A stretch of DNA of 64,000 bases from an uncultured virus (IMG/VR IMGVR_UViG_3300028393_000024). Its lineage: Duplodnaviria; Heunggongvirae; Uroviricota; Caudoviricetes. The DNA lies in the IMG/VR virus record IMGVR_UViG_3300028393_000024, one strand, 5' to 3'. Below are positions 27,501 through 43,074 of this stretch, piece after piece (position 1 is the first letter of the stretch; every line of letters starts with the position of its first letter). The notes beneath the pieces are model-generated. The model was given only the letters and a program-made list of their open reading frames with translations. It did not search any database and was not told the DNA's origin. The translations under genes and the position numbers were made by a program.

Positions 27501-28074
27501 TCCAACTAAAGCACTATTGGCAACTCTACAGGTTGGTAAATATATTACCATTTCTGGTTCTGGTACTGCCACAAACAACGGAACATATTTAATTACTGGT
27601 GTTGCTTCTGATGGCGCAACAGTGACAATCGCTAACACAAATGGTTCGACAATTGTTTCTGCAGGAACTGCAATTACCATAGTGTTTAGAAACTCTTACA
27701 TTGATGAGATTTCTCCGTCGGGTAGCTCTACTCACAGTAAGTACGTTACTAAACAGATTAGTTTGGCAACACCAGCTACTTCAATGAAGATTCGTCTTTC
27801 AATAAATTCACCAACAGCATCTAATGTTGCAGTTTATTATAGAACTTCTCCAGTTGGATCTAAGAACTCTTATGGAACAATTAATTATATTCTTGCAACT
27901 CAAGATGGTGTGTTCCCTAAAGTTCAATATGGTGATAATTCCTTCAAAGATGTTGACTATACAATAACTGGTTTGACTGCTTTTGATTCCTTTAATGTTA
28001 AGTTGGTATTTACTTCAACCAACACATCGGAAGTTACTAGAGTTAAAGACCTTAGAGTTATAGCAACAACATAA
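21514..28074 (+). CDS. Large virion structural protein, VrlC / DUF4815-like
   Basis: Motifs PYNDDY, RILFRPSFAVQARELTQLQTILQNQI, APGAHRY, LARRTYDESGNYTV, RYTMRDIG and WYDPLAQTF. Confidence 0.85.
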   Translation: MLDFNTEPYNDDYSEDSKFYRILFRPSFAVQARELTQLQTILQNQISRQGGALYKQGSMVIPGQVSIDTNAKYVKLVAVYSGASTESYITSTASTGKFITGSSGVQAQIIKVVSATTSDPTTIYVRYRSSDTTAGTQKVFADGEVITFDDGSGTTQAAASSATGTGSLATVQRGVYYVNGFFVLCADAHSAADQTIVLDKYTNTPSYRVGLSILETTITPEDDTTLLDNAQTSYNYAAPGAHRYHIDLVLTKLPLTSVDDQNFIELLKVSSGTIIRIVNKTEYSELEKELARRTYDESGNYTVRPFNVDVREARNNSRGTWTTTPTSYLIGDVILYSGKTYTAKNTATSASSVPPTHTTGTVFDGSGNTGVKWEYTPYPVYNRGISLTGSDDQLAIALDPGKAYVQGHEIEKVSTEYVYVNKCRDSSHQVQVINAFLPATVGNYVLVNSVNAAPFVDTFVQVALYNQFTTTGVASPVPGTGVGTQVGTARVRFIELDSGTQYKIGLFDIQMFSGYDFKRNVKSFYYNNPAGGAVVDFSADIAPVATRLVGAATASASTTITGTGTSFQTDLLVGDYISLGGTYRRVTAIASQNSITVDQSTSVTGVTIDRVSTQILEPENESLIFRLPYYAIKSLRSSDSTNRTTYYAYQKFTATAGATGSGGTGYCTLTVSAASGTMAPSAQTNNYQLVDSTTGSTISYVSASISGSSATFTLSNTYASRAFTVIGTVVKTLSSSTEKTKTLTTATVTFTTQAAAQALALSLGKADGYRVTSVLMDAGSFASAAGTYTLDISDRYNFNDGQTSSFYGLAKLELKPSYTVPSGPVQVTFEYFTHGIGDYFSVNSYADVDYKKIPFFNSISLRDSIDFRPRVDDTGVTFSGSGGSTSLIPKRGQEIQTDFIYYLARTDKIAIDVNGKFFQIAGNPSLNPGDPPEPKQGMVLYTLNLEPYTFSTTSNSVAVTKVENKRYTMRDIGTLERRITNLEYYTSLSLLEQQTEALTITDSTTGLNRFKNGFVVDNFSGHNVGDVTSVDYYCSIDMGANELRAFYSMKHIGLIEKVSTDAARSSSNYKLTGELITLPIIATPALITQPYASRLENINPFAIFTFLGQVNLNPPNDTWFETDRRPDIVQNQEGDFNTIATLAEKAGVLGTVWNAWQTQWTGEPVTSTQTYVGDQRGLGTVGWRDGLAANTPADQLNAMFGDVQGQGWAHRVVTAQTSAVTSGLSRTGINTQVVAKIDTQLVEDRVLSTAVIPYIRSRNILIQATGLKPNTTFYPFFDNVNVAAYCTPATKITFTGAVNFDSTSNVGANTTQTARLINGDSQSCLSSGDVITGASSGATAICVGSEQVLNTSGVVSTRNLYVVNIKGTFTNGESISGSISGVTAVISAIETTQTAGGSLGTDVNGKVQLLFAVPNSDTARFRIGQRQFTLTDSTTNDATFTSRGNGQYFAQGVLETKQATYMSTRNGILVQNQVDPQFKTITQTSSRVVSDTGWYDPLAQTFMVNSRGGAFLTAVDLFFATKDRSIPVHIEIREVVNGNPGKTILPFSQVALNPEQVNISTSTVTLPDGTIVPSYDTATTFTFPSPVYVQDATEYALVVASDSNGYKTWISNMGDAIPGSNRTISDQPYAGVLFKSQNGSTWTADQDQDLKFTIYRAQFDVNAVGTVQFVNTIIPKVTLDKDPFETNIGSAFVRVFHRNHGLSTNSYVTISNSDTTKIYGSTPTSGTITCSTGSVTVTGSSTVFNTDIGTTTVGQGAVLYTNEATPRYIGVVASVASNTSLTLVANAAITLSSATTFTIAPSINGIPVTEIYKLSTVTTVTDNDSYVLTTTTTGKKFGYAGGQTATAIGNYQYNALQPIAQVQTFADTNALFSLKTTTGKSINGSETPYTLDSSFSGAVANDTNYFSAPRVVASQQNENTLMSGNKSVTIQCQMTTTNDAVSPVLDSKRMGLVAISNTLNAPSETVINYGSLDQITLTSANTNIAFTSTGIASADGPTKALLATLQVGKYITISGSGTATNNGTYLITGVASDGATVTIANTNGSTIVSAGTAITIVFRNSYIDEISPSGSSTHSKYVTKQISLATPATSMKIRLSINSPTASNVAVYYRTSPVGSKNSYGTINYILATQDGVFPKVQYGDNSFKDVDYTITGLTAFDSFNVKLVFTSTNTSEVTRVKDLRVIATT

Positions 28075-28304
28075 TGGAAAATATATTACAGGTTGAAGGA
28101 AATCCATCTCTAGTACGAGACTTGGCATCTAACGCAATTATTAATACGAATATATCAGAGTTTGAAACCTATCTTAGAAATAGAGATATTATGTCTGCTA
28201 GAGTTAATCAATTACAGACTCAGAACGAAAAGATAAATAGACTTGAAAATGATATCAACGACATAAAAACTATGTTACAACTGTTGATCAATAAGGAAAA
28301 TTAA
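28074..28304 (+). CDS. Small conserved T4-like phage protein with coiled-coil C-terminus
   Basis: VEGNPSLVRD..SNAIINTN motif; coupled to both neighbours by TAATG overlaps. Confidence 0.7.
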   Translation: MENILQVEGNPSLVRDLASNAIINTNISEFETYLRNRDIMSARVNQLQTQNEKINRLENDINDIKTMLQLLINKEN

Positions 28305-29602
28305 TGGCATCTATCACGCTACGCACTGTTAAAGGAAGTCCTCTTACCAATCAAGAGATGGACGACAACCTTAATAATATCAATGCTCAATTAAATCTTA
28401 CTTTACCTGCAGCGTCATATACCGCAGCCGATGTGCTAACGAAACTTAAAACAGTTGACGGAGTTGGTTCTGGTTTAGATGCAGATTTGTTGGATGGTTA
28501 TAATTCAGCAACAACTGCAACGGCAAACACAATTGTTCTTAGAGATGCCAATACAGATATTGCCGCAGGAGTGGTTCGTGCCACAACAGTAATTGCCAAT
28601 GTAACAGGTAATGTCACAGGTAATGTAACAGGAACTCTTACTGGAAATGCAACCAATGTTTCTGGCACTGTTGCTATTAATAATGGTGGCACTGGTGGTA
28701 GTGATGCAACTTCTGCTCGCTCAAACCTTGGACTTGGATCAATGGCAACTCAGAATAATTCTGGTGTTACTATTGTCGGTGGAACTATTACTGGTTTAAC
28801 AACTGCATTACCAATTGCATCTGGCGGTACAGGCGCAACATCAGCAACTGCAGTAAGAACAAACCTTGGTCTTGCCATTGGTACTGATGTTCAGCCTTTC
28901 TCAAACGAATTAACAGGTATCGCAGCAGCAACTAACACTGGTATCTATGTTCGTATTGGTGCTGCTTCAGTTACACAAAGATCAGTAGTTACTAATGGAA
29001 ATGGTATAGTTGTTACAAATGGCAGCGGAGTCGGTGGTAATATTTCAGTTGACTTACCTAGTTCTGGTTCAGTAACACTTTCATCTCTACAACTTAATGC
29101 TGGTTTAACTGTTGGAACAACAGGAACTTTCTCTGGCGCTGTTACACTTCCATCTATTTCAAAATCTGGTGGTAATGGTTCAGGTGATATTGGCCAAGAC
29201 GGAAATCGTTTCGGAACAATTTTTGGAACAGCTTCTACTGCTAAGTATGCCGACTTGGCAGAAAAATATCTTGCCGACGATACCTATGAAACAGGAACTG
29301 TTATTGTAGTTGGTGGCGAAAAAGAAGTTACTCAATCTTTCTTTGGAGACAAAGCAATCGGTGTTGTTTCTGCTGCTCCTGCTTACTGTATGAATGATGA
29401 GTTGAAAGACGGAACAAAGATAGCACTAAAAGGTCGTGTCCCAGTTAAAGTTGTTGGAGCAATTACCAAAGGCAAAAGTATTACTGCTGGTGATAATGGA
29501 ACTGCTGTTCAATGTGAACATCACTTCTATGGAGCGTTTGGCGTGGCTCTTGAATCCAGCGATACTGAAACTGTTAAATTAATTGAATGTGTGATTTTAT
29601 AA
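28304..29602 (+). CDS. Tail fibre-like protein with C-terminal intramolecular chaperone (peptidase G2/IMC-like)
   Basis: N-terminal LRTVKGSPLTNQEMDDN; SGLDADLLDG; GGTGATSA repeats; C-terminal YADLAEKY...IALKGRVPVKV. Confidence 0.7.
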   Translation: MASITLRTVKGSPLTNQEMDDNLNNINAQLNLTLPAASYTAADVLTKLKTVDGVGSGLDADLLDGYNSATTATANTIVLRDANTDIAAGVVRATTVIANVTGNVTGNVTGTLTGNATNVSGTVAINNGGTGGSDATSARSNLGLGSMATQNNSGVTIVGGTITGLTTALPIASGGTGATSATAVRTNLGLAIGTDVQPFSNELTGIAAATNTGIYVRIGAASVTQRSVVTNGNGIVVTNGSGVGGNISVDLPSSGSVTLSSLQLNAGLTVGTTGTFSGAVTLPSISKSGGNGSGDIGQDGNRFGTIFGTASTAKYADLAEKYLADDTYETGTVIVVGGEKEVTQSFFGDKAIGVVSAAPAYCMNDELKDGTKIALKGRVPVKVVGAITKGKSITAGDNGTAVQCEHHFYGAFGVALESSDTETVKLIECVIL

Positions 29603-29608
29603 TGTTTT

Positions 29609-30688
29609 TTGATGCATGTACAGCCGATAACATTCTATAAGACAGCAGCTGTCTCTAGTATACTCAAACCAAAAGATTTAGTAGTCTATCTAAAGACAAC
29701 TGAAACTTGCCAACTCAACTGCAAACACTGTTTCACTAATGGTGTCAACGGCAGAAAAGTTTACTTCAATCCCCAAGCAACAATAGACTGGTTTCACAAA
29801 CTCCATGCGGAATGTGAAACATTTGGATCAGGCGCAATTATATTTCATGGTGGAGAACCTTTTCTTGCACCACTTGAAGATATGTATAAAGTTTGGGAAG
29901 AAGTATCACCCCTTTGGCCAAATCTTGGTTGGTCATGTTCAACGAATCTCTGTTTCGCACTGACAGAGGAACATTTAAAATTCTTCTCAACTGTATTAAA
30001 GAATGGTTTCTGCACCAGCTGGGACAAGAACATTCGTTTTGAAAATGATAAACAAGAAGCACTTTGGAGAAAGAACCTTAGAACTCTTGTTGATCTTGGT
30101 CACAATATAACTTTGAACATTAGTCTAAACAAAGACTTGATGAAAATGGATACTCTTGAGTTGGTTACTTGGTTAAACACTCTTGGTGTAAACTATGTTC
30201 AGTTTGAGCGACTTACCCATGATGGAAGCGCAAATATAAACACTGACATCTTTCCCGAGAATAAAGAGATAGATGATTGGTTTCTTAGAATGCATGAAAC
30301 TTATCAATCAGTAAAGCCAGAGTACCATGATGTTTTGTTGGAAGGTGTATATTCCTCTGTCCTAAAAGGTGTTCATGGTGGTGTTCGTTGCAGAGACTGT
30401 GAGCAAAAGATCTTTACAATCAATGGCGATGGAACAATATCAGGTTGCCCAAATTCCGCTGTTGGTAACAGTTTTGGGGATATTGGGCAGTCTATAAATA
30501 GTTTATTAAGTGCTCCAGGAAGAATAAATAATATTACATGTGAGGTAGCTCGCGATCCTCGTTGTTACACCTGTAATGTTTTTGACATCTGTAATAGCGA
30601 CTGTCACCAATTGAGTTGGCAAGGCGATGTTTGTGCAGCACCAAGAACACTAATGCAAAGGTTAAAACATGACAACAGCTGGAACTAA
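29609..30688 (+). CDS. Radical SAM / SPASM domain enzyme (1)
   Basis: CQLNCKHC (CxxxCxxC) and FHGGEP, then a Cys-rich C-terminus CRDC...GCPN...CYTC..FDICNSDC...C. Start is TTG 29609 or ATG 29612. Confidence 0.92.
   Translation: MMHVQPITFYKTAAVSSILKPKDLVVYLKTTETCQLNCKHCFTNGVNGRKVYFNPQATIDWFHKLHAECETFGSGAIIFHGGEPFLAPLEDMYKVWEEVSPLWPNLGWSCSTNLCFALTEEHLKFFSTVLKNGFCTSWDKNIRFENDKQEALWRKNLRTLVDLGHNITLNISLNKDLMKMDTLELVTWLNTLGVNYVQFERLTHDGSANINTDIFPENKEIDDWFLRMHETYQSVKPEYHDVLLEGVYSSVLKGVHGGVRCRDCEQKIFTINGDGTISGCPNSAVGNSFGDIGQSINSLLSAPGRINNITCEVARDPRCYTCNVFDICNSDCHQLSWQGDVCAAPRTLMQRLKHDNSWN
30493..30500 (+). promoter_or_regulatory. Possible internal late promoter TATAAATA upstream of the CHxx-repeat gene
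   Basis: Exact consensus inside rSAM-1, about 170 nt before ATG 30669. It could be a chance match in AT-rich DNA. Confidence 0.35.
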
Positions 30689-31187
30689 TATAACAAAGGC
30701 AAACATCGTTGCCTCAATGGAAGCAGTTAGAAATACCTACAACTCAGGTATTGTTTGGGGTAGCAATGCTCAACCATTTCAATCAGATATTACTGGTGGA
30801 TCCACTTCTGGATATTCTACTCAATCTTTTGCTGGTGATATTTCCGACACAAACATAACTGCATCTACAATAACAAATAACTTTAGATCCTATGCTACCC
30901 TGCTATCGAGGATTCGTAATGTTCGTTTATTGAAGTGGTATCAGATTCAAGGCGATGTAAGAAATAGATTAGATTACGATGCCACAAATCTTACAAACTT
31001 AAATTCAAATTACCAGTGGAATGCTGATAACAGCGTTAACTCTGGAGAAACTGTTAATGCTGGAAATCTTGATGCCTTTGTAAACTATCTGTCAGCTAAC
31101 ATTAGTTCATACAGACAAACAACAGTGACAGTTGAAGAATTCTACTGCCACAGTAATTGCCATAGTAACTGCCACGGAAGTATTTGA
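30669..31187 (+). CDS. Putative rSAM substrate / precursor protein with C-terminal CHSN-CHSN-CHGS repeat
   Basis: 172-aa Ser/Thr/Asn-rich protein. Its only Cys and His residues are in the terminal YCHSNCHSNCHGSI. It overlaps the rSAM-1 stop. Confidence 0.7.
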   Translation: MTTAGTNITKANIVASMEAVRNTYNSGIVWGSNAQPFQSDITGGSTSGYSTQSFAGDISDTNITASTITNNFRSYATLLSRIRNVRLLKWYQIQGDVRNRLDYDATNLTNLNSNYQWNADNSVNSGETVNAGNLDAFVNYLSANISSYRQTTVTVEEFYCHSNCHSNCHGSI

Positions 31188-31948
31188 TGTATACTGTACC
31201 ATTTGATTCTGATACTTTGAAGAAAATTATAGTTGGAGAAATAACTTCTCCTGATATTGATTATGTTCAATCAAAGATCAAGGGTAAAAACTTCATAACA
31301 TATCTCAGCAATCTCAAGTATGAGAATCTTAATATCGATTTCTCAGATGTATCGCTTGATGAAAGAATAGAATTAGTTTCTGAGTATATTAGACACAATT
31401 CAACTTGTCACATTGAGCAGTTGGAAGCAACAGTTATTAAAGCACTGTTTCACTACAGAGGATATGAGTTATCTCTGGTTGACCAATCAGAAGATGACAA
31501 ACCATTTTTACACAAGTCTATATTATCGAATGATGAAATACAAGAGTTCGTTAAGATTGATATCAAATTAATTAAACAACTTGCAGATTTACTTGATGGT
31601 GTTCTTTTGTATGCAATTAAAAATCTAAACGATTACAAAGAAGAACTTGGCGATTTTGTAACGACCAATGTTATTGTAGAGAAACAAGAAGTTGGAAAAA
31701 CTTTTGTAAACTTCTTTGATAATCCAACATTTAATTGTCACTACTATGGAGCGATCCCTAAATTTGATGACATCAAGTATTTTGACCATTACTTTGACAG
31801 ACCAATTTACTCTGGTAGAACATTGATTAGTTACATAACAGTACCACAGTGTGTTATATTTCCACTATTGAAAATGATTATAGATGTAAAATTTACACCT
31901 GAACAATTAAACTCAATATTCAAAGAAGCCGATGCTACACTTATTTAA
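31184..31948 (+). CDS. Hypothetical protein in the rSAM cluster
   Basis: 254-aa ORF overlapping both neighbours; ATG at 31187. Confidence 0.75.
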   Translation: MMYTVPFDSDTLKKIIVGEITSPDIDYVQSKIKGKNFITYLSNLKYENLNIDFSDVSLDERIELVSEYIRHNSTCHIEQLEATVIKALFHYRGYELSLVDQSEDDKPFLHKSILSNDEIQEFVKIDIKLIKQLADLLDGVLLYAIKNLNDYKEELGDFVTTNVIVEKQEVGKTFVNFFDNPTFNCHYYGAIPKFDDIKYFDHYFDRPIYSGRTLISYITVPQCVIFPLLKMIIDVKFTPEQLNSIFKEADATLI

Positions 31949-32798
31949 TTCTTGCTATGTATATCCGTACATATTGTTTGATCCAACAAATAATTATTTG
32001 GTGGTAGGTGAAGACCATCTGAATCATCAGATAATTTCAAATAGTTTTTTCTACAATAATTCTACACCAAGAGAACCTTTTGCCAGATTAGATTCTTTTG
32101 AAACCTTTGCTGGATGTAACTTGCTAGATGCAACTGTCAACAACAAAGATAGATTTTTGATTTATACCGATGATGATAATTTCATTAAATTCTTCACGGC
32201 AAAAATGAAAACTCAAGTGGCAAACTTGAGCGAAGACTTCTTTCTTACAACGGCAAAGTTGTTTGCAGTTAAATTAAAAACAAGGGCAAAGTTACTTGCA
32301 ACTGATGACGCAAAACTAGAATTAAATAATCTTGCCGATAAATTCTTGGCACTAACTTCAATACCAGAAGTTGATGCTTTCTCACTCACACGTGCATGGG
32401 TCACTGCCAATGCTGGTATTGAGTGGAAATTTGCCAATGGTATTCTTGATAATATTCATGACATTGTTAATCGTAATGTGTACTCGTACTTTGATGAAGC
32501 AAAGGCACTTTATCTTTCCAGAAAACAAGGTGGCTGGGCTCTTGAAGAAACCAATCAGAAATATAAAACTTGTGCATCTATTGAAGATCTTTATTCGCAG
32601 ATGCGTAAAGAGATTATGATATTCACGGATTCTCTAATTTTACAGTACTACTACGATAGAGAAATGTTTAAGGATCCAAAGTTCTTACTACTACTTGCAT
32701 CCAATAAAGACATGGGTGATAAGATTGACCTTTGGTTGATTAGATGGTTTATGAAAATGTCTCAAGAACAAATTAAAGAATTGGACATAGTAGCATGA
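31932..32798 (+). CDS. Hypothetical protein in the rSAM cluster (paralogue of the next gene)
   Basis: 288-aa ORF starting MLHLFNSCYV with a later FLIYTD motif. Confidence 0.75.
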   Translation: MLHLFNSCYVYPYILFDPTNNYLVVGEDHLNHQIISNSFFYNNSTPREPFARLDSFETFAGCNLLDATVNNKDRFLIYTDDDNFIKFFTAKMKTQVANLSEDFFLTTAKLFAVKLKTRAKLLATDDAKLELNNLADKFLALTSIPEVDAFSLTRAWVTANAGIEWKFANGILDNIHDIVNRNVYSYFDEAKALYLSRKQGGWALEETNQKYKTCASIEDLYSQMRKEIMIFTDSLILQYYYDREMFKDPKFLLLLASNKDMGDKIDLWLIRWFMKMSQEQIKELDIVA

Positions 32799-33748
32799 TA
32801 TATCTTTTCGATAACTGTTATCTGTCAACAAAAAACATAATAGTTGAAACTGCCAAACAAGTATGGATCGGTTCTTTTGAGAATTTTGATGAGAAGTCTC
32901 TTGACATTTACAAGACATATACCGATATTACTCCAAAGAAATTAGACGACTTGTTTGCAGATATTCATAAGAATTTCTCAGATAAGAAAACTATTATATA
33001 CTGTGATGTTGATTATTTCCAGTATGTATATTCTATTTTCTTCAATGGTATTTTCAGTAAGGCAACTGTTCTTGAGTTGTATCAATACGATGCTCTCAAG
33101 GAAAACTATGGTCTTGCCGATACATATGGTCTGGTTGTAACTGGGCTCAGAGATATTAATCGTGTTACTTTGCCAGAAGAATTAAATTGGACCAGTGGTT
33201 CTTCAAAGTTCTCTGCTGATCTTGATACTCAAAGAGTTGAGATAGCATTTGCCAATGCGATTCAAGGTAACAAAAAGTCTTTGGCATTTTGTGTTGACAG
33301 AATTGATCAAATGTATGATGGCAGTCCAGGATTCTGGTCTAAGTTTGCAGAGCAAACTCTCCCTGGAATTATGTCCGATGAAGAATATACTATCGAGCAT
33401 TTATTGGACACCGAGTATATGGAAACATACCTTGATCAATTTAAGGTAAACGAGTTCCTTCCAAACAAGATTGTTCCAATCATCAATGATAAGTTTGGAT
33501 ATGATTATCATAAGCATTTCTTCACTGTTTTAAATAATGATGAAAACTATGAGGAATTCTTAAAACCTATACTAAAGATGAGCAAGAAACAGTTTATCGA
33601 GAAACGAATCCTAGATCCAAAGATTGCGGTAAATTACAACTTCATCTTTCCAAACATTTCCAACTTTGATTCTGTGAATCCAATTTTCTGGAATGCGATA
33701 TTAAAGAACCAAGACAATATAGAATGGCTCAAAAAGTATAAAGTGTAA
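32795..33748 (+). CDS. Hypothetical protein in the rSAM cluster (paralogue of the previous gene)
   Basis: 317-aa ORF starting MIYLFDNCYL with a later TIIYCD motif; ATGA overlap. Confidence 0.75.
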   Translation: MIYLFDNCYLSTKNIIVETAKQVWIGSFENFDEKSLDIYKTYTDITPKKLDDLFADIHKNFSDKKTIIYCDVDYFQYVYSIFFNGIFSKATVLELYQYDALKENYGLADTYGLVVTGLRDINRVTLPEELNWTSGSSKFSADLDTQRVEIAFANAIQGNKKSLAFCVDRIDQMYDGSPGFWSKFAEQTLPGIMSDEEYTIEHLLDTEYMETYLDQFKVNEFLPNKIVPIINDKFGYDYHKHFFTVLNNDENYEEFLKPILKMSKKQFIEKRILDPKIAVNYNFIFPNISNFDSVNPIFWNAILKNQDNIEWLKKYKV

Positions 33749-34800
33749 TGGAATTAATAATTAAACCAACTGAACTTTGTAATTTTAAATGTACCTTTTG
33801 CTCATCAACTAAACTTGTAGAAGATAGTGCCAGCACTCTTGACTTACAGCATGTTTTTGATTTTCTAAAGAGATTTCCAAATACAAATACAATAATTGTC
33901 AATGGTGGAGATCCACTAATGATGAAACCAGAGTATTACTTTAATATTCTTGCGTACATTGAAGAACACAAACTCCCAACAACTCTTGGATTCACAACTA
34001 ACCTTTGGGCATTCTACAAGAAACCAGAGATGTGGACTCCGCTGTTTAGACACCCAAGAGTTGGTGTTACTACAAGTTTTCAGTATGGGTTCGGTCGCAA
34101 GATTAATGAAAACAGAGTTTATACTGAAGCCGACTTTTGGAAAGTCAGTGATTTGTTTCTCAAAGAAGTTGGTTATCGTCCAGGGTTTATTGCTGTTATC
34201 TCTGAAGAGAATGAACATCATGCAATTAAACATGTTGAACTTGCCAAGAAAATGGATGTTCAGTGTAAGTTAAACTATGCCATGGCTTCTGGCGAACAGG
34301 ATAAACCATATCGCCTAAGTAAGATATATGAAGCATACCTAGAAGTGTATGAGAGAGACCTTTGGCACTGGGAATTTAACACAAAGCAGATGATGAGTCG
34401 TTTGAATAACATTGCCAATGTTTGTCCTCAAGCAAGAAACTGCGATGATCATATAAGAGCATTGAACCCAGAGGGAGATTACTACTCCTGTGGTTCTATG
34501 GGTGATGACAGAGAATATCCAATTAACTTTGTAAAGGAAGTTAAAGAAGGTGGTTTCTCTACTCCACTTCAAGATGCTCCAGAATTATATTCGCTGAAAG
34601 ATGAGTGTATTGGTTGCCCAATGTTTGCGATTTGTAATGGGTGTAAGAAAACAATTAAAGATTTAAAGAAACATGATATGGTTGAAGAGCACTGCTCACA
34701 TATGAAGCAGTTGGCTCCAAGAATTATTAAGATAAACAGTGAAATAGATTATGTCGAAGCAACTCAAAGAATCCATCAAATTCTCGTTCCTGAATATTGA
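33748..34800 (+). CDS. Radical SAM / SPASM domain enzyme (2)
   Basis: IIKPTELCNFKCTFC and NGGDP, then C-terminal CPQARNC...YSC...CIGCPMFAICNGC...HC. Confidence 0.92.
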   Translation: MELIIKPTELCNFKCTFCSSTKLVEDSASTLDLQHVFDFLKRFPNTNTIIVNGGDPLMMKPEYYFNILAYIEEHKLPTTLGFTTNLWAFYKKPEMWTPLFRHPRVGVTTSFQYGFGRKINENRVYTEADFWKVSDLFLKEVGYRPGFIAVISEENEHHAIKHVELAKKMDVQCKLNYAMASGEQDKPYRLSKIYEAYLEVYERDLWHWEFNTKQMMSRLNNIANVCPQARNCDDHIRALNPEGDYYSCGSMGDDREYPINFVKEVKEGGFSTPLQDAPELYSLKDECIGCPMFAICNGCKKTIKDLKKHDMVEEHCSHMKQLAPRIIKINSEIDYVEATQRIHQILVPEY

Positions 34801-36643
34801 TCTTCGTGTACCGATTCAAAGGTTACCAATTAATTGGTTGAACTTTAAGAATTACTACACGAAACATGGTAAATATTCAGACCGAGTAGTTTGGCAGAAA
34901 CCAATTCTCAATCTAGAAGGTTGGACATTTGAACAGATTGTGACTTACTATGACGAGCAGGATTCTGACATCTATGCTTTCTCTAGTTATCTCTGGAGTC
35001 ACATGGCTATTATGGCAGTTGCTCAAGAATTAAAAAAGCGTAATCCAAACAGAATTATTTTACTTGGTGGTCCACATCTTAATATTACTCATAATAATCT
35101 AGGATGGTTCATTAAGAATAAGTTTATCGATGCGATTTGCGAACCTACAAGTTATGGTGAGTGGTTCATTACTGATATTTTGAATCAGTTTGTAGAGGGT
35201 GATATAAACTACAAAGAAGTTTCCTTTGCGATCTATAAAAGTGGACGTGGCACAAGTCCTAATAAGATTGGGTTTGACTTTCCTGCAAGTTTAATTGCTG
35301 GCAATGAAGATATACTGTTTGAGTGCAAGAACATAGCACTTGACAGAAATGTACCTTTGGTTTTACCAATTGAGTTAACTCGTGGTTGTCCCTATGAGTG
35401 TGTCTTTTGCGAGTGGGGTGGTGGTATTGGTGGTAAGGTTATTCGTAAACCACTAGATATGATCAAGGAAGATCTAGACTGGATACCGCAGATCGGTATT
35501 GAGCAAGTTCAAATTCTTGATGCAAATTACGGAATATATCTGGAAGATGAGGATGTTTCCAAATATATAGAAACGATCAAAGATTATTCAGGTTTACCAA
35601 ACCATGTAGAGATATATGGAATGACAAAGTCCAAGCAAGAAAGACGCTGGGCAACCATTGAACCACTGGCACGAGCAAAGGTAGTTGAGCGATACAAGTT
35701 AAGTTTACAAACACTGAACAATGAAGTGTTAAAGAATATTAAACGAACAGATATTCCTCGCGAAAAAGACTTTGAGTTTGCTCAGTATCTGTTTGATACC
35801 TATGGTATTCGTTCTGACTTTGAATTTATGATGGGACTGCCTGGATATACCAGACAAGACTTCTATGATGAAGTAGATATACAGTACGAGTATGGTTATA
35901 ACCTTGAGAGATATCTTTGGTTATTCCTACCAGACTCACCTGCCTACTCACCTGACTATATCAAAGAACATAATATTAAAACTGAAAAGATATGTATCGG
36001 TAAGTCAAGAATGAATAGTTATGCTTTTGATGACGTAAATCTTTTCGGTGATTATCATATTTCCTCTGATCCAGCTTTTACCTCAGATGTTGAGTTTGTT
36101 GTTGAAGCCAATGGGTTTACAAGAAAAGACTTTACTGAGTTCTTTTTTATGAATTACTGGATCGTGAACAATATTGTTGAAGTTACCTTTACCGATGATA
36201 TTATAAAGCATAATGTAAATACTGGTAAACTTAAAACTCCATCTTTGGTGTTTAAGAAAATCTACGAAAAGATAAGTGAGCCAACAGAAAATAAATATGT
36301 GTTGGCAATGCAAGACTTAAATGCTCAGATGTATGATTTAATTGCTGGAAACAGAAAAGAAGTTGCAGACTACAAAGAATTTAATCTACCTAATACAACA
36401 GTATCAGTGGATTTTAAATATATTTACAAGTCTTGTATATATGTTTTTGAACAGGAATATATTGATTTTCTTTGTTCAGTCGGTGAGGAGTTGGGACTTG
36501 AGATTCCAAACGATATCGTTGAACAATTTACAACTGTTCTAAATAAGTACAGAGAATCTATTTCTCCAAAGTATGATAAGACCTATCAGATAAGAACCTA
36601 CTACGAAAATTTTATTAATGAGAAATATACAACAGTTACTTGA
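34751..36643 (+). CDS. Cobalamin-binding-domain (class B-like) radical SAM enzyme
   Basis: N-terminal YAFSSYLWS and IILLGGPH of the B12-binding fold, then ELTRGCPYECVFCEWG, ILDANYG, SLQT and MMGLPG. Confidence 0.85.
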   Translation: MSKQLKESIKFSFLNIDLRVPIQRLPINWLNFKNYYTKHGKYSDRVVWQKPILNLEGWTFEQIVTYYDEQDSDIYAFSSYLWSHMAIMAVAQELKKRNPNRIILLGGPHLNITHNNLGWFIKNKFIDAICEPTSYGEWFITDILNQFVEGDINYKEVSFAIYKSGRGTSPNKIGFDFPASLIAGNEDILFECKNIALDRNVPLVLPIELTRGCPYECVFCEWGGGIGGKVIRKPLDMIKEDLDWIPQIGIEQVQILDANYGIYLEDEDVSKYIETIKDYSGLPNHVEIYGMTKSKQERRWATIEPLARAKVVERYKLSLQTLNNEVLKNIKRTDIPREKDFEFAQYLFDTYGIRSDFEFMMGLPGYTRQDFYDEVDIQYEYGYNLERYLWLFLPDSPAYSPDYIKEHNIKTEKICIGKSRMNSYAFDDVNLFGDYHISSDPAFTSDVEFVVEANGFTRKDFTEFFFMNYWIVNNIVEVTFTDDIIKHNVNTGKLKTPSLVFKKIYEKISEPTENKYVLAMQDLNAQMYDLIAGNRKEVADYKEFNLPNTTVSVDFKYIYKSCIYVFEQEYIDFLCSVGEELGLEIPNDIVEQFTTVLNKYRESISPKYDKTYQIRTYYENFINEKYTTVT

Positions 36644-37331
36644 ACACGTAAATAGAATTCCCCATCTGCCATTAAATTTTAACTATGACGCAGAAAGAAT
36701 TGAACGTGAAGTTCGTGAGTGTCCCTTTCCGCTTATGCCCTATGAAGCAACCATGCAAGAAAATCATGGACATGAAAAGAGTAAGTGGAACAACTTGTCA
36801 CTGTTCAGCTACAATGGTGAAATCTTTTGCGATCGTTTAGAAGGTGCTGGTCCAGGAGAACTAGAAAGAATTTGGGGCAAAGTTCAACAGACTGGATTGT
36901 CTGAGTATATGCCCTATACCTATGAGGTTCTTGAACACCTTGGTGGTGGTAAAGCACTGGCAAGGATTGAAGAAATACTTCCTGGAACTGTGATGGGTTG
37001 GCATAATCATGTGTTTGAATTGTTTCATCCAGAAACAATGATGATTGTTCAGTTGCCCATAACTATACCTCAAAAATTTAAATACTCTGTGATGGCAAAC
37101 AAAGATTACAGAGGAATGGACTTTGGACTTTATACACCAAAGGTATATGAGTCTACTTACAATCCAGGAACACCAGTTATTTTTAATGCGCATCACTATC
37201 ATAATGTGTTTAACTTTGACAAAACAGGTGTTCGTTTAACGATTCGTTTCTTTGCTGATCTACGAGATGATAGAGTATATGATTTAGTACAGGATGCAGT
37301 GAATAATTATAAGGGAGATTACATTGAATAA
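36618..37331 (+). CDS. Cupin / Asp-Asn beta-hydroxylase-like Fe(II) oxygenase (1)
   Basis: WNNLSL, ARIEEILPGTVMGWHNH and FNAHHYHNVFN....RLTI follow a double-stranded beta-helix pattern. Confidence 0.7.
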   Translation: MRNIQQLLEHVNRIPHLPLNFNYDAERIEREVRECPFPLMPYEATMQENHGHEKSKWNNLSLFSYNGEIFCDRLEGAGPGELERIWGKVQQTGLSEYMPYTYEVLEHLGGGKALARIEEILPGTVMGWHNHVFELFHPETMMIVQLPITIPQKFKYSVMANKDYRGMDFGLYTPKVYESTYNPGTPVIFNAHHYHNVFNFDKTGVRLTIRFFADLRDDRVYDLVQDAVNNYKGDYIE

Positions 37332-38022
37332 TATTGCACATCTTCCTCTTGGTATAGATTTTGATCATAAAAAAATTCTAACAGAGATAGAGAATTTACC
37401 TCATTCGCTACGCAAATATCGTAGTGCACTATCAAATGGTAAAACCATGGAAATTCATGATGAGGAAAGATGGGATTCGTTGGCACTTTATAGCATTGAC
37501 GGAAAATCTGAATCTAATCCTGCAGAACCATGGACAGGGGACTTTATTAAAACTGAAGCACTTTATATGTGTCCTTACTTGGACAGTGTTTTACACTCTG
37601 TCGGTGGTGGTAAATTACTTGGAAGAATTGAGATATTTAACAAGAATGGATCTGCTGGCTGGCACAGTCATGTTATGGAAGCGGGACAACCAGAGTGGAT
37701 CTCTGTTTGGAATCTTCCACTTATTATGCCCAAGGAATCTAAGTTTAGTGTGCTTTCCTACATGGATTACAGAGGTTCAGATTACAACAAACCGATTAAA
37801 ATATATGAGCAGTGGTATGAACCTGGAAAGATGTACTGTTTAAACAGTTATCACTATCATAATGCCTTTAATTATGGTGATATGTCAATGATTATGATTC
37901 GATTCTATGTTGATACAAGAGACGAAAAAGTTAAAGAAATATTACAAAAAGCCATGGATAACTACACTGGAGAGTACATTCAGTCTTATGAAGAGTATAT
38001 AATCTCCACTGCAGTTACCTAA
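37324..38022 (+). CDS. Cupin / Asp-Asn beta-hydroxylase-like Fe(II) oxygenase (2)
   Basis: WDSLAL, CPYL, GRIEIF...GWHSH and LNSYHYHNAFN. Clear paralogue of the preceding gene; TTG start after GGGAG. Confidence 0.7.
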   Translation: MNNIAHLPLGIDFDHKKILTEIENLPHSLRKYRSALSNGKTMEIHDEERWDSLALYSIDGKSESNPAEPWTGDFIKTEALYMCPYLDSVLHSVGGGKLLGRIEIFNKNGSAGWHSHVMEAGQPEWISVWNLPLIMPKESKFSVLSYMDYRGSDYNKPIKIYEQWYEPGKMYCLNSYHYHNAFNYGDMSMIMIRFYVDTRDEKVKEILQKAMDNYTGEYIQSYEEYIISTAVT

Positions 38023-38053: not shown

Positions 38054-38680
38054 ATGACCACAGCACTCACTACCAGAGTTTCCACCAACGCAACATTTGC
38101 TCCCACAGTAAAGGGATCGCCGATTTCAAGCGCAGAAATTGATAACAACTTTATCAGTTTGGCCACAAACAAACTAGAAATTGCCAATAACCTTGCTGAT
38201 TTACAGGATCCACCAACAGCAGCTACTAACCTTAGTGTTGGAACTTCTTCTCAGGCGCAGTTTGGATCGCTTGGTGTTGGTACTACAGGTTCTGCAACAA
38301 CTGGTGAGATTAGAGCAACCAATCAAATTACTTCTTACTACTCTGATGCTCGTTTAAAAACAAACATCAAAACAATCCCCAATGCTTTAGAAAAAGTAAT
38401 GCAAATTACAGGTGTTACCTACACAGGTAACAAACTGGCAGAATCTTTTGGGTTTGATCCAAACCAAAAACAAGTCGGTGTTCTTTCTCACGAAATTGAG
38501 GCAGTACTGCCTGAAGCAGTGAAGTCGGCACCCTTTGATATTATGCTTTTTGAACACACTGAGATGTCAAAATCTGGTCAAAATTTTAAAACTGTTCAAT
38601 ACGAGAAGCTGGTTCCTCTTCTTATAGAGGCAATAAAAGAACTAAATATAGAAGTAAAGAAATTAAAGGAGATTAAATAA
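38054..38680 (+). CDS. Short fibre protein with peptidase S74 intramolecular chaperone domain
   Basis: YYSDARLKTNI...GVLSHEIEAVLPEAV...VQYEKLVPLLIEAIKEL; N-terminal TVKGSPISSAEIDNNF. Confidence 0.85.
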   Translation: MTTALTTRVSTNATFAPTVKGSPISSAEIDNNFISLATNKLEIANNLADLQDPPTAATNLSVGTSSQAQFGSLGVGTTGSATTGEIRATNQITSYYSDARLKTNIKTIPNALEKVMQITGVTYTGNKLAESFGFDPNQKQVGVLSHEIEAVLPEAVKSAPFDIMLFEHTEMSKSGQNFKTVQYEKLVPLLIEAIKELNIEVKKLKEIK

Positions 38681-39225: not shown

Positions 39226-40515
39226 ATGGCTTACCTTGGTAATACACCAACTTCGCAAAGTTTTACTTCCAATATAGATTACTACAGTGGAACAGGTTCA
39301 GCTACAGCGTTTACACTGTCACGTTCAGTGGCCACGATCAATGATATTTTGGTTGTTGTTGATAACGTGGTTCAACGACCAACTGATGCTTATACACTGA
39401 GCGGAAGTGTTATCACCTTTACTTCTGCTCCACTGAGCGGAACTAACAATATCTATGTTCGTTATATGGCAACAACTACTCAGGTTGTTGCTCCTGCCGC
39501 AAACAGCGTTTCCTATTCTTCTTTGACCTCAGATATGCAAAGTAATATCTATGGGTTCAAGAATCGTATTATGAATGGTGGTATGGGTATTTGGCAAAGA
39601 GGTACTAGTTTTACTGTCGCTGGTTCTACTTTTGCATATACTGCAGATCGCTGGGTTGTATATTCTGCAAATAGTTCAACTACGGTATCAAGAAATTCAA
39701 GCATTCCAACTGGTACTGGATTTCCATATAGCGCACAAGTACAGCGCACTGCTTCAAACACAGGAACAAGTGCTGTATTTTTCCAACAAATAATTGAATC
39801 AAATAATATGCTTGATCTAGCAGGTCAAACAATAACATTAACATTCTGGGCAAAAGCAGGTGCCAATTTTTCATCAGGAAGCACTGGTGTATACATTAAT
39901 ACAGGAACTGTTGCTGATCAAGGAACCGCAGCTTCTCTTGGTAGTTGGACTGGATACACTTCTGCTGCTACATATACTTTTACGCCAACAACAACTTGGA
40001 CAAAATATACTGTAACTGCTAATTTAAGTTCAATTGCTTTAGAATTATCAACATTATTTTTCTATAACCCAACAGGTACTGCTGGAGCAGATGATTCTCT
40101 TTATATCACTGGTCTTCAGTTAGAAAAAGGCGCAACAGCAACTAACTTTGATTACAGACCTTATGGTGCTGAAAAACTTTTGTGTATGAGATATTATGAA
40201 AAAACATATCAAGATGATGAAGCACCTAATAGAGTTAATCCAAATACAGCTAATGCATTAACTGGTGTTGCAACAAGTACTACTAACATTGCTTGTCATT
40301 GGAAATTTTCAGTACCTAAGAGAACATCAGCAACAGTACAATATTATTCTTGGAATGGAACTGGTGCTGGTAAGTGGGCAAATTTAAGTAATACTGATGT
40401 TACAGTTTCAACACCGTGGGGTGCTGGTTATACTGGATTTGCTAGACTCGATAGTACGGGTCTTACTGCTGGTGCTTTTTATTGGGGCTTTGCGGCTGCA
40501 GATGCGGAGTTATAA
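39226..40515 (+). CDS. Putative receptor-binding / adhesin protein (CBM-like domain family, copy 1)
   Basis: MAYLGNTP anchor, KNRIMNG..IWQRGT, GLQLEKG..AT.FDYRPYG...CMRYY; ends AEL. Confidence 0.7.
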   Translation: MAYLGNTPTSQSFTSNIDYYSGTGSATAFTLSRSVATINDILVVVDNVVQRPTDAYTLSGSVITFTSAPLSGTNNIYVRYMATTTQVVAPAANSVSYSSLTSDMQSNIYGFKNRIMNGGMGIWQRGTSFTVAGSTFAYTADRWVVYSANSSTTVSRNSSIPTGTGFPYSAQVQRTASNTGTSAVFFQQIIESNNMLDLAGQTITLTFWAKAGANFSSGSTGVYINTGTVADQGTAASLGSWTGYTSAATYTFTPTTTWTKYTVTANLSSIALELSTLFFYNPTGTAGADDSLYITGLQLEKGATATNFDYRPYGAEKLLCMRYYEKTYQDDEAPNRVNPNTANALTGVATSTTNIACHWKFSVPKRTSATVQYYSWNGTGAGKWANLSNTDVTVSTPWGAGYTGFARLDSTGLTAGAFYWGFAAADAEL

Positions 40516-40517
40516 AA

Positions 40518-42046: not shown

Positions 42047-42047
42047 T

Positions 42048-43073: not shown

Positions 43074-43074
43074 A

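What the first reader, a model, noticed from the sequence alone, without database searches (positions are those of the whole stretch)
29609..38022. Phage-encoded RiPP-like modification cluster (3 radical SAM enzymes, 2 oxygenases, Cys/His-repeat substrate) inside the tail module
Seen: nine consecutive co-oriented genes, each overlapping the next. They are rSAM/SPASM-1, a 172-aa protein ending CHSNCHSNCHGSI, three unknown proteins, rSAM/SPASM-2, a B12-domain rSAM and two cupin oxygenases. The block sits between fibre genes and contains no recognisable protease or transporter. Established: SPASM rSAMs typically crosslink or otherwise modify peptides and proteins; class B rSAMs methylate unactivated carbons; Fe(II) DSBH oxygenases hydroxylate side chains. 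Inference: this is a dedicated post-translational modification line whose product is a modified virion protein or phage peptide rather than a secreted antibiotic. I know of no characterised phage system with this composition, but I could not search for one.
Basis: partly seen in the sequence, partly recalled or inferred. Interest (0 to 1): 0.95.

Follow-up and report, generated by a model that had tools for sequence, protein, structure and literature searches.

The report
Enzyme cassette maturing a phage virion protein
A widespread gene cassette in large phages and some predatory bacteria pairs several radical-SAM enzymes with a small protein ending in an invariant Cys-His repeat; in one cultured phage that protein is in the virus particle, so phages may chemically modify one of their own structural proteins.

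Summary
In detail: nine co-oriented genes, all eight junctions overlapping, between two fibre genes in a T4-like baseplate/fibre module.

Confirmed gene identities:
- Two radical-SAM/SPASM enzymes.
- A TokK/CysS-like B12 radical-SAM enzyme.
- A 172-aa protein ending CHSNCHSNCHGSI.
The two "cupin oxygenases" are only weakly supported. The three unknowns stay unknown; one, X3, has a confident fold with no solved relative.

The cassette is not a one-off. The tail protein defines a family of 155 representative clusters. Nearly all end in (C-H-x-S/N/A)x3, usually followed by RxRR at the C-terminus. In both search directions it sits beside radical-SAM enzymes in phage contigs, in 15 of 15 matching GenBank jumbo-phage records, and in chromosomes of Bdellovibrionota.

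Published virion proteomics of Agrobacterium phage Atu_ph07 lists the tail protein (gp170) in the particle, running far above its mass. The neighbouring enzymes are not listed.

Best reading: an intracellular maturation line modifies the C-terminal tail of a baseplate- or fibre-associated virion protein. The chemistry (probably cross-links) and the role of the tail are inferred, not shown.

The closest known analogue is the bacterial HXS defence system, but this cassette is not a member of it. I found no publication describing it. Novel and of high interest.

The parts
29609..30688 (+). O1, rSAM-A: radical-SAM/SPASM enzyme, core member of the cassette
   Evidence: CX3CX2C (C34, C38, C41) and seven further Cys (C264, C280, C319, C322, C328, C332, C342) are invariant in 49 relatives. 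phrog_1802 2e-55. NCBIfam best hits are DynA 3.4e-8, DarE and PapB, all far below cut-offs. Orthologues sit next to the CH gene in pPa_SNUABM_DT01, RSF1 and Atu_ph07.
30669..31187 (+). O2, CH-tail protein: compact alpha/beta domain (residues 1-160) plus a flexible C-terminal tail CHSNCHSNCHGSI; the proposed substrate and virion protein
   Evidence: Translation. AF2 pLDDT 87.8 with the tail at pLDDT 50-60. Family of 155 representative clusters. Only C160, H161, C164, H165 and H169 are invariant in 121 diverse members. The Atu_ph07 homologue gp170 is in the virion proteome. No Pfam, NCBIfam or PHROG family. No solved fold relative: Foldseek found none and the best VIA Z is 5.1.
31184..31948 (+). 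O3, 'X3': conserved unknown protein directly downstream of the CH gene; core member
   Evidence: phrog_20767 1.9e-29. Homologues in all three jumbo-phage cassettes examined. Present in 62 of 80 viral and 29 of 37 genome loci. AF2 pLDDT 89.3. No fold relative: Foldseek best E 0.15, VIA best Z 3.3.
31932..32798 (+). O4: unknown protein, clade-variable accessory
   Evidence: No family hit. Weak similarity (1e-5) to pPa_SNUABM_DT01 PA10_00063. 42-57% identical among window-clade loci.
32795..33748 (+). O5: unknown protein, accessory
   Evidence: No family hit. Weak similarity (3e-4) to the same pPa_SNUABM_DT01 protein as O4. Atlas search gave noise only, score 0.81.
33748..34800 (+). O6, rSAM-B: radical-SAM/SPASM enzyme, the most conserved gene of the cassette
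   Evidence: Pfam radical SAM 8.7e-9. NCBIfam DynA 1.3e-14, anSME 6.1e-8, HxsC 1.4e-7 (N-terminus only), SPASM 6e-5. 87-92% identical in window-clade loci where the neighbouring fibre gene is about 50%. 50-60% identical to jumbo-phage proteins.
34751..36643 (+). O7: cobalamin-dependent (class B) radical-SAM enzyme, probable C-methyltransferase; accessory
   Evidence: Pfam radical SAM 4.6e-12 and B12-binding 1.6e-5. KedN5 family 5.6e-35. TokK 2.8e-27 and CysS 1.2e-23. A B12-rSAM occurs in many but not all cassettes.
36618..37331 (+). O8: cupin/AspH-like putative metal-dependent oxygenase; accessory
   Evidence: PF05118 4.6e-4, 20.5 bits against cut-off 22.6. Invariant W128, H129, H131, E134, H193, H195, N196 in 10 relatives. 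4 of 10 relatives hit PF05118. No PDB sequence match.
37324..38022 (+). O9: paralogue of O8; absent from some relatives
   Evidence: O8/O9 2e-45. Missing in L006 and L011, which carry one cupin gene.
28304..29602 (+). Fibre protein (432 aa) immediately upstream; a conserved neighbour of the cassette in phages
   Evidence: PHROG tail-fibre families. A homologue lies upstream of the cassette in 55 of 80 viral loci. Its C-terminal domain matches Atu_ph07 gp176 at 9e-24, and gp176 is a virion protein.
21514..28074 (+). Giant DUF4815 structural protein; frequently upstream of the fibre gene and cassette
   Evidence: PF16075 1.5e-51 and phrog_358. Found upstream in 28 of 80 viral loci. Giant structural proteins also precede the cassette in Atu_ph07 and Phosso.
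38054..38680 (+). S74-chaperone fibre protein immediately downstream
   Evidence: Peptidase_S74 1.6e-14. S74 fibre-like genes also adjoin the cassette in 5 of 8 Bdellovibrionota loci scanned.

Best explanation
The cassette is a maturation line for a virion protein.

O2 is a small structural protein: a compact alpha/beta domain with a flexible C-terminal tail of three C-H-x-(S/N/A) units. It is made late, together with the baseplate and fibre genes.

Proposed steps, all inferred:
1. Inside the infected cell the two SPASM radical-SAM enzymes (O1 and O6) abstract hydrogen atoms in the tail and install covalent cross-links. The most likely link joins the His ring or the Cys sulfur to the beta (or alpha) carbon of the small residue at position 4 of each unit.
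2. Clade-specific tailoring enzymes decorate the product. In this window these are a B12 radical-SAM methylase and two cupin-type oxygenases. Jumbo phages and Bdellovibrionota use further radical-SAM paralogues and 2OG oxygenases.
3. X3 (O3) is an obligatory non-catalytic or novel partner.
4. The enzymes stay behind, and the matured protein is built into the particle near the baseplate or fibres. There the rigid, possibly metal-binding Cys/His tail acts at the host envelope.

What is shown:
- The gene content.
- The invariance of the motif.
- Two-way co-occurrence of tail gene and enzymes.
- The family affinities of the enzymes.
- Virion location of the Atu_ph07 homologue, from a published table.

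What is inferred:
- That the tail is the substrate.
- The type of chemistry.
- The position in the virion.
- The function of the tail.
For: 1. Motif. All 120 listed close homologues and 123 of the 150 listed representatives of 155 clusters end in CHxxCHxxCH. About 20 of the other 27 have CHxxCHxxH. In 121 sequences at 24-74% identity, only C160, H161, C164, H165 and H169 are invariant.

2. Position 4 of the unit is S, N or A in 569 of 585 cases and never Gly. Position 3 is free, with Gly in 114 of 585. This is what an acceptor carbon would require.

3. Co-occurrence starting from the motif. 80 of 80 viral loci and 36 of 37 genome loci with a CH ORF have radical-SAM genes of the cassette families beside it.

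4. Co-occurrence starting from the enzyme O6, for 80 loci:
- 54 have a CH tail within 10 kb.
- 3 have it further along the record.
- 2 have a degenerate tail.
- 21 are cut by contig ends on the expected side.
- None is a clean counterexample.
In addition, 15 of 15 GenBank phage records with an O6 homologue have the CH protein.

5. The enzymes resemble peptide/protein cross-linking maturases: DynA, DarE, anSME, PapB and the cyclophane synthases YhhB, FxsB, GrrM and XyeB. They carry intact SPASM cysteines.

6. The enzymes are more conserved than their structural neighbours: O6 87-92% against about 50% for the fibre gene.

7. Attai et al. 2018 (PMC6102473), Supplementary Table S5, read:
- Atu_ph07 gp170 (31.9 kDa) is in virions with 8 unique peptides and 35% coverage.
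- It is most abundant in band 1. Proteins of 87-139 kDa peak there, whereas roughly 30 kDa proteins usually peak in band 8.
- gp165-169, gp171 and gp172 (the enzymes, X3 and the cupin) are not listed.

8. The tail is modelled as a flexible extension of a folded domain, so it would be accessible to enzymes.

9. All junctions overlap, and the cassette abuts the fibre genes.
Against: - No mass shift or cross-link has been seen for any family member. The Atu_ph07 table gives no peptide-level data for the tail.
- The high-mass migration of gp170 could come from an SDS-resistant oligomer or from disulfides. The loading buffer described in the Methods passage I read names no reducing agent.
- Cys/His tails can bind metals without any modification.
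- Virion location is known for one phage only, which is distant from the window's clade (24% identity).
- The oxygenase assignment is below Pfam thresholds.
- In RSF1 two dihydrofolate reductase genes and an HNH gene lie inside the cassette.
- In one Bdellovibrionota locus an ABC exporter pair lies nearby.
Confidence: 0.6

Rival explanations
1. The Cys/His tail is an unmodified metal-binding or iron-sulfur/sulfur-handling motif. The radical-SAM enzymes act on a different substrate, such as another structural protein or a small molecule. The CH protein would then be a metallochaperone, a cluster or sulfur donor, or simply a metal-capped structural tip.
For: Cys and His are classic metal ligands, and only these residues are invariant. 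No modification has been observed. Phage fibre and spike tips are known to hold metal ions on His motifs (recalled, not tested here). Fibre genes are conserved neighbours in 55 of 80 viral loci.
Against: - A chaperone for the enzymes would not be expected in virions while the enzymes are absent from them.
- Metal binding alone does not explain why position 4 is restricted to S/N/A and is never Gly.
- The cassette occurs with the CH protein in Bdellovibrionota loci that lack the phage fibre and DUF4815 genes.
- The enzymes' nearest relatives modify peptides or proteins.
Confidence: 0.17
2. It is a true RiPP or peptide-derived cofactor pathway, of the PQQ or mycofactocin type. The folded domain would be a large leader or scaffold. 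The modified C-terminal Cys/His segment would be cut off and act as a free small molecule, such as a metallophore, redox cofactor or toxin.
For: - The core motif is at the extreme C-terminus, as in several peptide-derived cofactors (recalled).
- The cassette holds many redox tailoring enzymes.
- The RxRR end could be a recognition or cleavage signal.
- One Bdellovibrionota locus has ABC exporters and a DsbA-like gene nearby.
Against: - No protease or exporter is recognisable in the window cassette. I saw none travelling with the cassette in the loci I annotated.
- The N-terminal domain is conserved and confidently folded, and the homologue is a virion component.
- Some members fuse the domain to a glycine-rich domain: P0203, Gly_rich_2 7e-11.
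Confidence: 0.12
3. The enzymes are auxiliary metabolic or DNA-hypermodification genes, unrelated to the CH protein and merely parked in the structural region.
For: Radical-SAM enzymes take part in phage thymidine hypermodification (PMC8989533, search listing and abstract only). RSF1 has DHFR genes inside the cassette. Authors of jumbo-phage and Campylobacter-phage genome papers treated such radical-SAM genes as accessory or metabolic.
Against: - Two-way co-occurrence with the CH gene holds across very distant phages and bacteria.
- No nucleotide-metabolism gene is shared among the cassettes.
- The best family matches are peptide maturases, not nucleotide enzymes.
Confidence: 0.05

Closest known systems
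HXS anti-phage system (HxsA-D; Li et al., Nat Commun 2026, PMC13128918; abstract, Results section 9 and Discussion read)
   Same: A roughly 200-aa protein, not a short peptide, carries tandem His-Xaa-Ser units and basic residues and is matured by two radical-SAM enzymes plus a small or unknown partner. The modification in HxsA (+8 Da) maps to an S-H-R-S-S unit and needs both the His and the Ser. Here the unit is C-H-x-S in 77% of cases, and most tails end in RxRR. Both systems concern the phage-envelope and DNA-entry interface.
   Different: - The enzymes are not orthologues: HxsC scores 30.7 bits against a cut-off of 267.9, and HxsB 25.4 against 370.
- No HxsD was found, and there is no peptidoglycan-binding domain or export signal.
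- The repeat has period 4 with an invariant Cys and sits at the C-terminus.
- The system is encoded by phages, where the protein is a virion component, and by Bdellovibrionota. It is not a bacterial defence island.
SPASM radical-SAM cross-linking maturases of RiPPs (DynA/DarE of dynobactin and darobactin; the three-residue cyclophane synthases YhhB, FxsB, GrrM and XyeB; the ranthipeptide maturase PapB) and the anaerobic sulfatase-maturing enzyme
   Same: These are the best NCBIfam matches of rSAM-A, A' and B over nearly full length, with DynA between 3.4e-8 and 2.2e-19. The full seven-Cys SPASM signature is present. A short repeated motif with an aromatic or His donor and a small residue two positions on fits the three-residue cyclophane logic. 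The details of that chemistry are recalled, not read here.
   Different: - All scores lie far below the family cut-offs, for example 53.9 bits against 450.
- The substrate is a folded protein with no cleavable leader.
- No RiPP recognition element was detected.
- Up to six or seven radical-SAM paralogues occur per cassette.
- The product stays on a virion protein.
Cobalamin-dependent radical-SAM methylases TokK, CysS and KedN5
   Same: O7 aligns over about 340 residues with TokK (2.8e-27) and CysS (1.2e-23) and matches the KedN5 family at 5.6e-35.
   Different: Those enzymes methylate small-molecule or carrier-bound intermediates. Here the context suggests a protein side chain. The score is far below the KedN5 cut-off (120.6 against 700).
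Radical-SAM-rich modules noted in phage genome papers (RSF1/RSL2-like jumbo phages; FLC6; SURPRISE13; Campylobacter phages CP220 and CPt10)
   Same: These are the same genes in the Chiangmaivirus-like phages. They are listed there as cupin, Fe-S oxidoreductase, radical SAM and 2OG oxygenase, described as accessory or of unknown function (passages read).
   Different: None of the passages I read mentions the CH-tail protein or a function. The CP220/CPt10 module could not be linked: tblastn with a short CH protein found nothing in GenBank phages.

Membership tests
Radical SAM / SPASM subfamily (O1, O6) | CX3CX2C motif for the SAM-binding 4Fe-4S cluster | tested here: met
   C34, C38 and C41 are invariant in 49 rSAM-A sequences. 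CNFKCTFC is present in O6. Pfam PF04055 is 8.7e-9 for O6 and weak (1.9e-3) for O1.
Radical SAM / SPASM subfamily (O1, O6) | C-terminal seven-Cys SPASM signature (C..Gx4C, CX2CX5CX3C, C) | tested here: met
   C264, G275, C280, C319, C322, C328, C332 and C342 are invariant in alignment A4. TIGR04085 hits score 21.6 and 23.4 bits for O1 and O6, below the 27-bit cut-off. The Bdellovibrionota orthologues score 29.5 and 28.1 bits, above it.
RiPP pathway (strict sense) | Precursor gene adjacent to its maturase genes | tested here: met
   The CH gene lies beside rSAM-A in 23 of 23 close loci. Radical-SAM genes flank it in 116 of 117 motif-found loci.
RiPP pathway (strict sense) | Leader removal by a dedicated protease and release or export of a small product | tested here: not met
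   No protease or transporter domain was found in the nine ORFs. The homologous full-length protein is found in virions at 35% coverage.
RiPP pathway (strict sense) | RiPP recognition element (PqqD-like) in a maturase or a partner protein | tested here: inconclusive
   No such domain was reported by Pfam or NCBIfam. X3 has no recognisable fold relative.
HXS system | Effector protein with tandem His-Xaa-Ser repeats | tested here: inconclusive
   The units are C-H-x-S in 449 of 585 cases, but with period 4, an added Cys and only three units. O2 has no NCBIfam hit at E 0.05 or better.
HXS system | HxsB and HxsC equivalog radical-SAM enzymes, plus HxsD | tested here: not met
   HxsC scores 30.7 and 29.0 bits against a cut-off of 267.9, over the N-terminal 80 residues only. 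HxsB scores 25.4 against 370, for RSF1 rSAM-C. No other cassette protein gave a hit.
Class B (cobalamin) radical-SAM methyltransferases (O7) | N-terminal B12-binding domain followed by a radical-SAM core; similarity to characterised members | tested here: met
   PF02310 1.6e-5 (25.2 bits, below the 32.1 cut-off) and PF04055 4.6e-12. TokK 2.8e-27 and CysS 1.2e-23. Membership holds at superfamily level only: the KedN5 family scores 120.6 against 700.
Cupin / Asp-Asn beta-hydroxylase-like oxygenases (O8, O9) | Family HMM match above threshold | tested here: not met
   PF05118 scores 20.5 bits against 22.6 for O8, and O9 has no hit. 4 of 10 relatives hit weakly, best 1e-4. A family profile finds no PDB match.
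Cupin / Asp-Asn beta-hydroxylase-like oxygenases (O8, O9) | Conserved metal-binding His/Glu residues in a double-stranded beta-helix | tested here: inconclusive
   H129, H131, E134, H193 and H195 are invariant in 10 sequences.
Three-residue cyclophane (triceptide-type) or thioether cross-linked peptides | Covalent link between an aromatic, His or Cys donor and the C-alpha or C-beta of a nearby residue | not testable with these tools
   Only indirect evidence exists: the constraint on position 4 and the enzyme affinities. This needs mass spectrometry or NMR.

The most novel reading that the evidence does not exclude
Large phages and predatory Bdellovibrionota share a previously unrecognised device: a small structural protein whose C-terminal (Cys-His-x-Ser)x3 tail is turned by a battery of radical-SAM enzymes into a cross-linked, metal-binding or reactive 'warhead'. 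The protein would be mounted with fibre or baseplate proteins and would work during attack on the Gram-negative envelope, in penetration, channel formation or DNA entry. It would be the attacker-side mirror of the bacterial HXS defence protein. That would make it the first radical-SAM-matured virion component and a new class of protein-borne cofactor.
Probability: 0.3. Interest if true: 0.92.

Novelty: new variant of a known kind. Interest (0 to 1): 0.82.

Why it matters
- Radical-SAM maturation is known for secreted peptides, for a few enzyme cofactors and, since 2026, for one bacterial anti-phage effector. If this reading is right, the same chemistry is used to finish a virus particle.
- The family is large and clean. 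It spans hundreds of phage contigs, several cultured jumbo phages of plant-associated and clinical bacteria, and predatory bacteria. It has an easily recognised signature, (CHxS)x3 followed by RxRR at the C-terminus.
- The question is directly testable on cultured phages.
- The reading would give a function to radical-SAM, cupin and 2OG genes that jumbo-phage papers list as accessory or of unknown function.
- It defines two new protein families (the CH domain and X3) with no solved relative.
- It suggests a shared piece of machinery between phage infection and bacterial predation.

Tried and rejected
- Complex prediction of O1 + O3 with O2 as the partner gave no verdict: score 0.01 against a mark of 0.32, and the controls were not run. 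It says nothing either way.
- Fold searches for O2 found only uncharacterised members of its own family or noise. Foldseek against PDB and BFVD and VIA wide were used, with best Z 5.1. Several TssK, IglD and phage-baseplate rows at Z 3.2-4.7 are within noise.
- Fold searches for X3 found nothing. The Foldseek best E was 0.15 and the VIA best Z was 3.3.
- The Atlas search for O5 gave noise, score 0.81.
- The Atlas search for O3 pointed to 'Upx-like' clusters at 0.93. PADLOC, Pfam on 46 X3 members and the fold searches gave no support. Upx is described as a dual PD-(D/E)XK nuclease (title and abstract in the listing). I rejected this as unsupported.
- The search for related loci with the diverse alignment A2 failed because it had no conserved stretch. 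I replaced it with a degenerate DNA pattern for the motif.
- Megablast of the block and tblastn of O7 against GenBank phages found nothing.
- A link to the radical-SAM modules of Campylobacter phages CP220/CPt10 was not found.
- The sigma-70 promoter and terminator scan was not above shuffles. The T4 late-promoter word TATAAATA was not enriched, with 5 matches against 5.67 expected.
- The intein reading of P0227 was not confirmed by Pfam.
- Literature searches for a described function were run. None found a paper on this cassette. The library omits most subscription-journal papers, so a description elsewhere cannot be excluded.
- Earlier scan notes held nothing relevant.

Full report
**The observation**

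The window is the baseplate and tail-fibre module of a T4-like myovirus. It comes from an IMG/VR record of 64.5 kb, estimated 41% complete. PHROG matches run from gp32, through the baseplate hub, gp5-, gp25-, gp6-, gp7- and gp10-like genes, to a 2186-aa DUF4815 protein and a long series of fibre genes.

Between a 432-aa fibre gene (28304-29602) and an S74-chaperone fibre gene (38054-38680) lie nine + strand ORFs. All eight junctions overlap, by 1 to 50 nt.

Gene identities:
- O1 and O6 are radical-SAM/SPASM enzymes. The CX3CX2C motif and seven further cysteines in the SPASM pattern are invariant in 49 O1 relatives. Both match phrog_1802 near 1e-55.
- O7 is a cobalamin-type radical-SAM enzyme. 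It matches TokK at 2.8e-27, CysS at 1.2e-23 and the KedN5 family at 5.6e-35.
- O2 is a 172-aa protein ending CHSNCHSNCHGSI.
- O8 and O9 are paralogues. Their assignment as cupin oxygenases is weak. PF05118 scores 20.5 bits against a cut-off of 22.6, 4 of 10 relatives hit it, and no PDB sequence matches. Conserved H-x-H-x2-E and H-x-H-N residues fit a cupin metal site.
- O3, O4 and O5 have no Pfam or NCBIfam family.
- No protease or transporter is recognisable.

**The tail protein defines a large family**

A word-indexed search found 263 homologues. All 120 that were listed end in CHxxCHxxCH.

An exhaustive phmmer search over 1.84 billion representatives found 155 clusters at E of 1e-3 or better. 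Of the best 150:
- 123 carry CHxxCHxxCH near the C-terminus.
- 97 of those are followed by two residues and then RxRR at the C-terminus.
- 12 end as in the window clade, with a single I or L.
- A few have four or six units.
- About 20 of the 27 without the strict motif have CHxxCHxxHSSRxRR.

In an alignment of 121 members at 24-74% identity to O2, the only invariant residues are C160, H161, C164, H165 and H169. C168 is conserved in at least 90%.

Across 195 distinct tails, position 4 of the unit is Ser 449, Asn 91 and Ala 29 times out of 585, and never Gly. Position 3 is free, with Gly 114 times. The unit is therefore C-H-x-(S/N/A), a His-Xaa-Ser type repeat preceded by Cys.

AlphaFold2 with this alignment gives a confident compact alpha/beta domain (pLDDT 87.8). 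The tail is a low-confidence, flexible extension. The fold has no annotated relative in PDB or BFVD.

**The cassette is conserved and widespread**

Window clade:
- 23 of 23 IMG/VR loci keep the order DUF4815, a 76-aa gene, fibre, O1, O2, O3, O4, O5, O6, O7, O8(, O9), S74 fibre, as far as each contig reaches. One of them is essentially identical to the window.
- 7 loci reach past O8. All 7 have O3 to O8, and 5 have O9.
- O6 is 87-92% identical where the fibre gene is about 50%.

GenBank phages:
- O6 has 50-60% identical homologues in 15 records: RSF1, RSL2, FLC4/6/8, SURPRISE13, RsoM3USA, Atu_ph07, Phosso and pPa_SNUABM_DT01.
- All 15 carry a CH-tail protein.
- The order there is small cupin, rSAM-A, CH, X3, further radical-SAM paralogues (C, B, D, E) and 2OG oxygenases.
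- The cross-lineage core is rSAM-A, CH, X3 and rSAM-B.

Search by motif. A degenerate DNA pattern for the motif found at least 123 viral contigs, of which 80 were fetched, and 47 genome contigs.
- All 80 viral loci have a CH ORF with cassette radical-SAM genes beside it.
- 55 have the fibre homologue upstream and 28 the DUF4815 protein.
- Of the 47 genome loci, 37 have a CH ORF, and 36 of those have radical-SAM neighbours.
- Nine of the 47 are chance matches in high-GC genomes, and one is cut at the contig end.

Search by enzyme. In the reverse direction I took the best 80 viral loci found with O6.
- 54 have a CH tail within 10 kb.
- 3 have it further along the record.
- 2 have a degenerate tail (CHYSCFTSSCHFSRGRR).
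- 21 are truncated on the side where the gene is expected.
- None is a clean counterexample.

**Predatory bacteria**

By record title, 27 of the 38 cassette-bearing genome loci are Bdellovibrionota or Bacteriovoracia. Some lie on contigs of 1.3 to 2.8 Mb.

The flanks hold housekeeping genes: NrdR, NusB, serine dehydratase, LspA, LolA, SMC and FabH. The loci therefore look chromosomal and not prophage-borne. In 5 of 8 loci scanned, an S74-chaperone fibre-like gene with a roughly 200-aa partner adjoins the cassette. The CH proteins there show no obvious signal peptide.

The trait is patchy. It was found in 9 of 301 sampled genomes of the phylum.

**Virion location**

Attai et al. 2018 (PMC6102473) report ESI-MS/MS of Atu_ph07 particles. 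I read passages of the main text and part 3 of the supplementary data sheet.
- gp170, the CH-tail protein (31.9 kDa), is listed with 8 unique peptides and 35% coverage. It appears in gel bands 1 to 9 and is most abundant in band 1.
- In the same table, proteins of 87-139 kDa peak in band 1, and roughly 30 kDa proteins mostly peak in band 8.
- gp176, whose C-terminal domain resembles the window's 432-aa fibre protein, is also listed.
- gp165-169, gp171 and gp172 (the enzymes, X3 and the cupin) are not listed.

The loading buffer named in the Methods passage contains SDS but no reducing agent. The high-mass species may therefore be a disulfide-linked or SDS-resistant oligomer and not necessarily a novel covalent adduct.

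**Mechanism**

rSAM-A, its Bdellovibrionota paralogue and rSAM-B all match cross-link-forming SPASM maturases best. The hits are DynA (3.4e-8 to 2.2e-19), anSME, DarE, PapB and the cyclophane synthases YhhB, FxsB, GrrM and XyeB. All scores lie far below family cut-offs.

The relevant facts are a flexible tail, invariant Cys and His, and a position-4 residue that always has a beta carbon. Taken together, the most economical reading is that these enzymes link the His ring and/or the Cys sulfur to the carbon skeleton of the position-4 residue in each unit. Methylation by O7 and oxygenation by O8 and O9 would be clade-specific tailoring.

X3 is an obligatory partner of unknown role. It has a confident fold with no solved relative.

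These steps are inference. No modification has been measured.

**Comparison with known systems**

The nearest known system in logic is HXS (PMC13128918). There a roughly 214-aa effector with five His-Xaa-Ser repeats is matured by two radical-SAM enzymes plus HxsD. It acquires +8 Da on an SHRSS unit and blocks phage DNA entry in the periplasm.

The present cassette is not an HXS system:
- The HxsB and HxsC models score 25-31 bits against cut-offs of 268-370.
- There is no HxsD.
- There is no peptidoglycan-binding domain.

It is also not a RiPP pathway in the strict sense, because nothing indicates leader cleavage or export.

Genome papers on the jumbo phages list these genes as accessory or of unknown function. 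My ten literature searches found no description of the CH-tail family or of the cassette's role. The library lacks most subscription journals.

**Verdict**

The system is best filed as a new variant of radical-SAM protein maturation: phage- and predator-encoded, acting on a structural protein. It involves two new protein families and an easily testable prediction.

Noticed in passing
protein P0227 (family representative): A roughly 140-residue insertion sits exactly inside the CH motif (CHSS|C...SN|CHSSCHGSRSRR). It begins with Cys and ends in Asn followed by Cys, like a mini-intein, and splicing would restore a normal tail. Pfam gave no intein hit, so this is by eye only.
   Followed up: partly
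proteins P0203 and P0246: Some family members are fused to a glycine-rich domain. P0203 matches Gly_rich_2 (PF21722) at 7e-11 at its N-terminus. P0246 has a Gly-rich stretch inserted mid-protein.
   Followed up: partly
L075, L100, L108, L113, L141, L149, L152, L154 and others: A variant architecture has a fibre gene, then two tandem short CH proteins (about 125-140 aa), then up to five paralogous radical-SAM genes of family E, with C, D and B on the opposite strand. The number of tail proteins and enzymes scales up together.
   Followed up: partly
window 30493-30500 (+): A T4 late-promoter-like TATAAATA lies inside O1, 169 nt upstream of the O2 start. Three of the other four copies in the window (6872, 13520, 49587) lie within 25 nt upstream of gene starts. 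The word is not enriched overall, with 5 matches against 5.67 expected.
   Followed up: partly
window 39226-55567: This is an array of at least seven paralogous fibre genes (phrog_4492 C-terminal domains). At least two are followed by small 64-65-aa ORFs with similar acidic C-termini (40482-40679 and 41852-42046). They may be fibre chaperones or a diversification cassette.
   Followed up: no
L003 (RSF1) 7688-8977: An HNH endonuclease gene and two dihydrofolate reductase genes are inserted between rSAM-C and rSAM-B of the RSF1 cassette. They are absent from pPa_SNUABM_DT01, Atu_ph07 and Phosso, so they look like a mobile insertion.
   Followed up: no
L041, L032, L064, L048, L058 (Bdellovibrionota loci): S74-chaperone fibre-like proteins of 345-413 aa, each with an adjacent unknown of about 200 aa, lie next to the cassette. 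L058 also has clostripain-like and transglutaminase-elicitor-like genes nearby.
   Followed up: partly
L230 / L233 4748-5437: A CH-family protein has a degenerate tail, CHYSCFTSSCHFSRGRR, in which the second unit has lost its His, inside an otherwise complete cassette.
   Followed up: partly
Atu_ph07 supplementary Table S5: The giant 'T4-like structural protein' gp180 (13.35 kb gene), just upstream of the cassette region, is not in the listed virion proteome, although gp170, gp176, gp177 and gp181 are.
   Followed up: no
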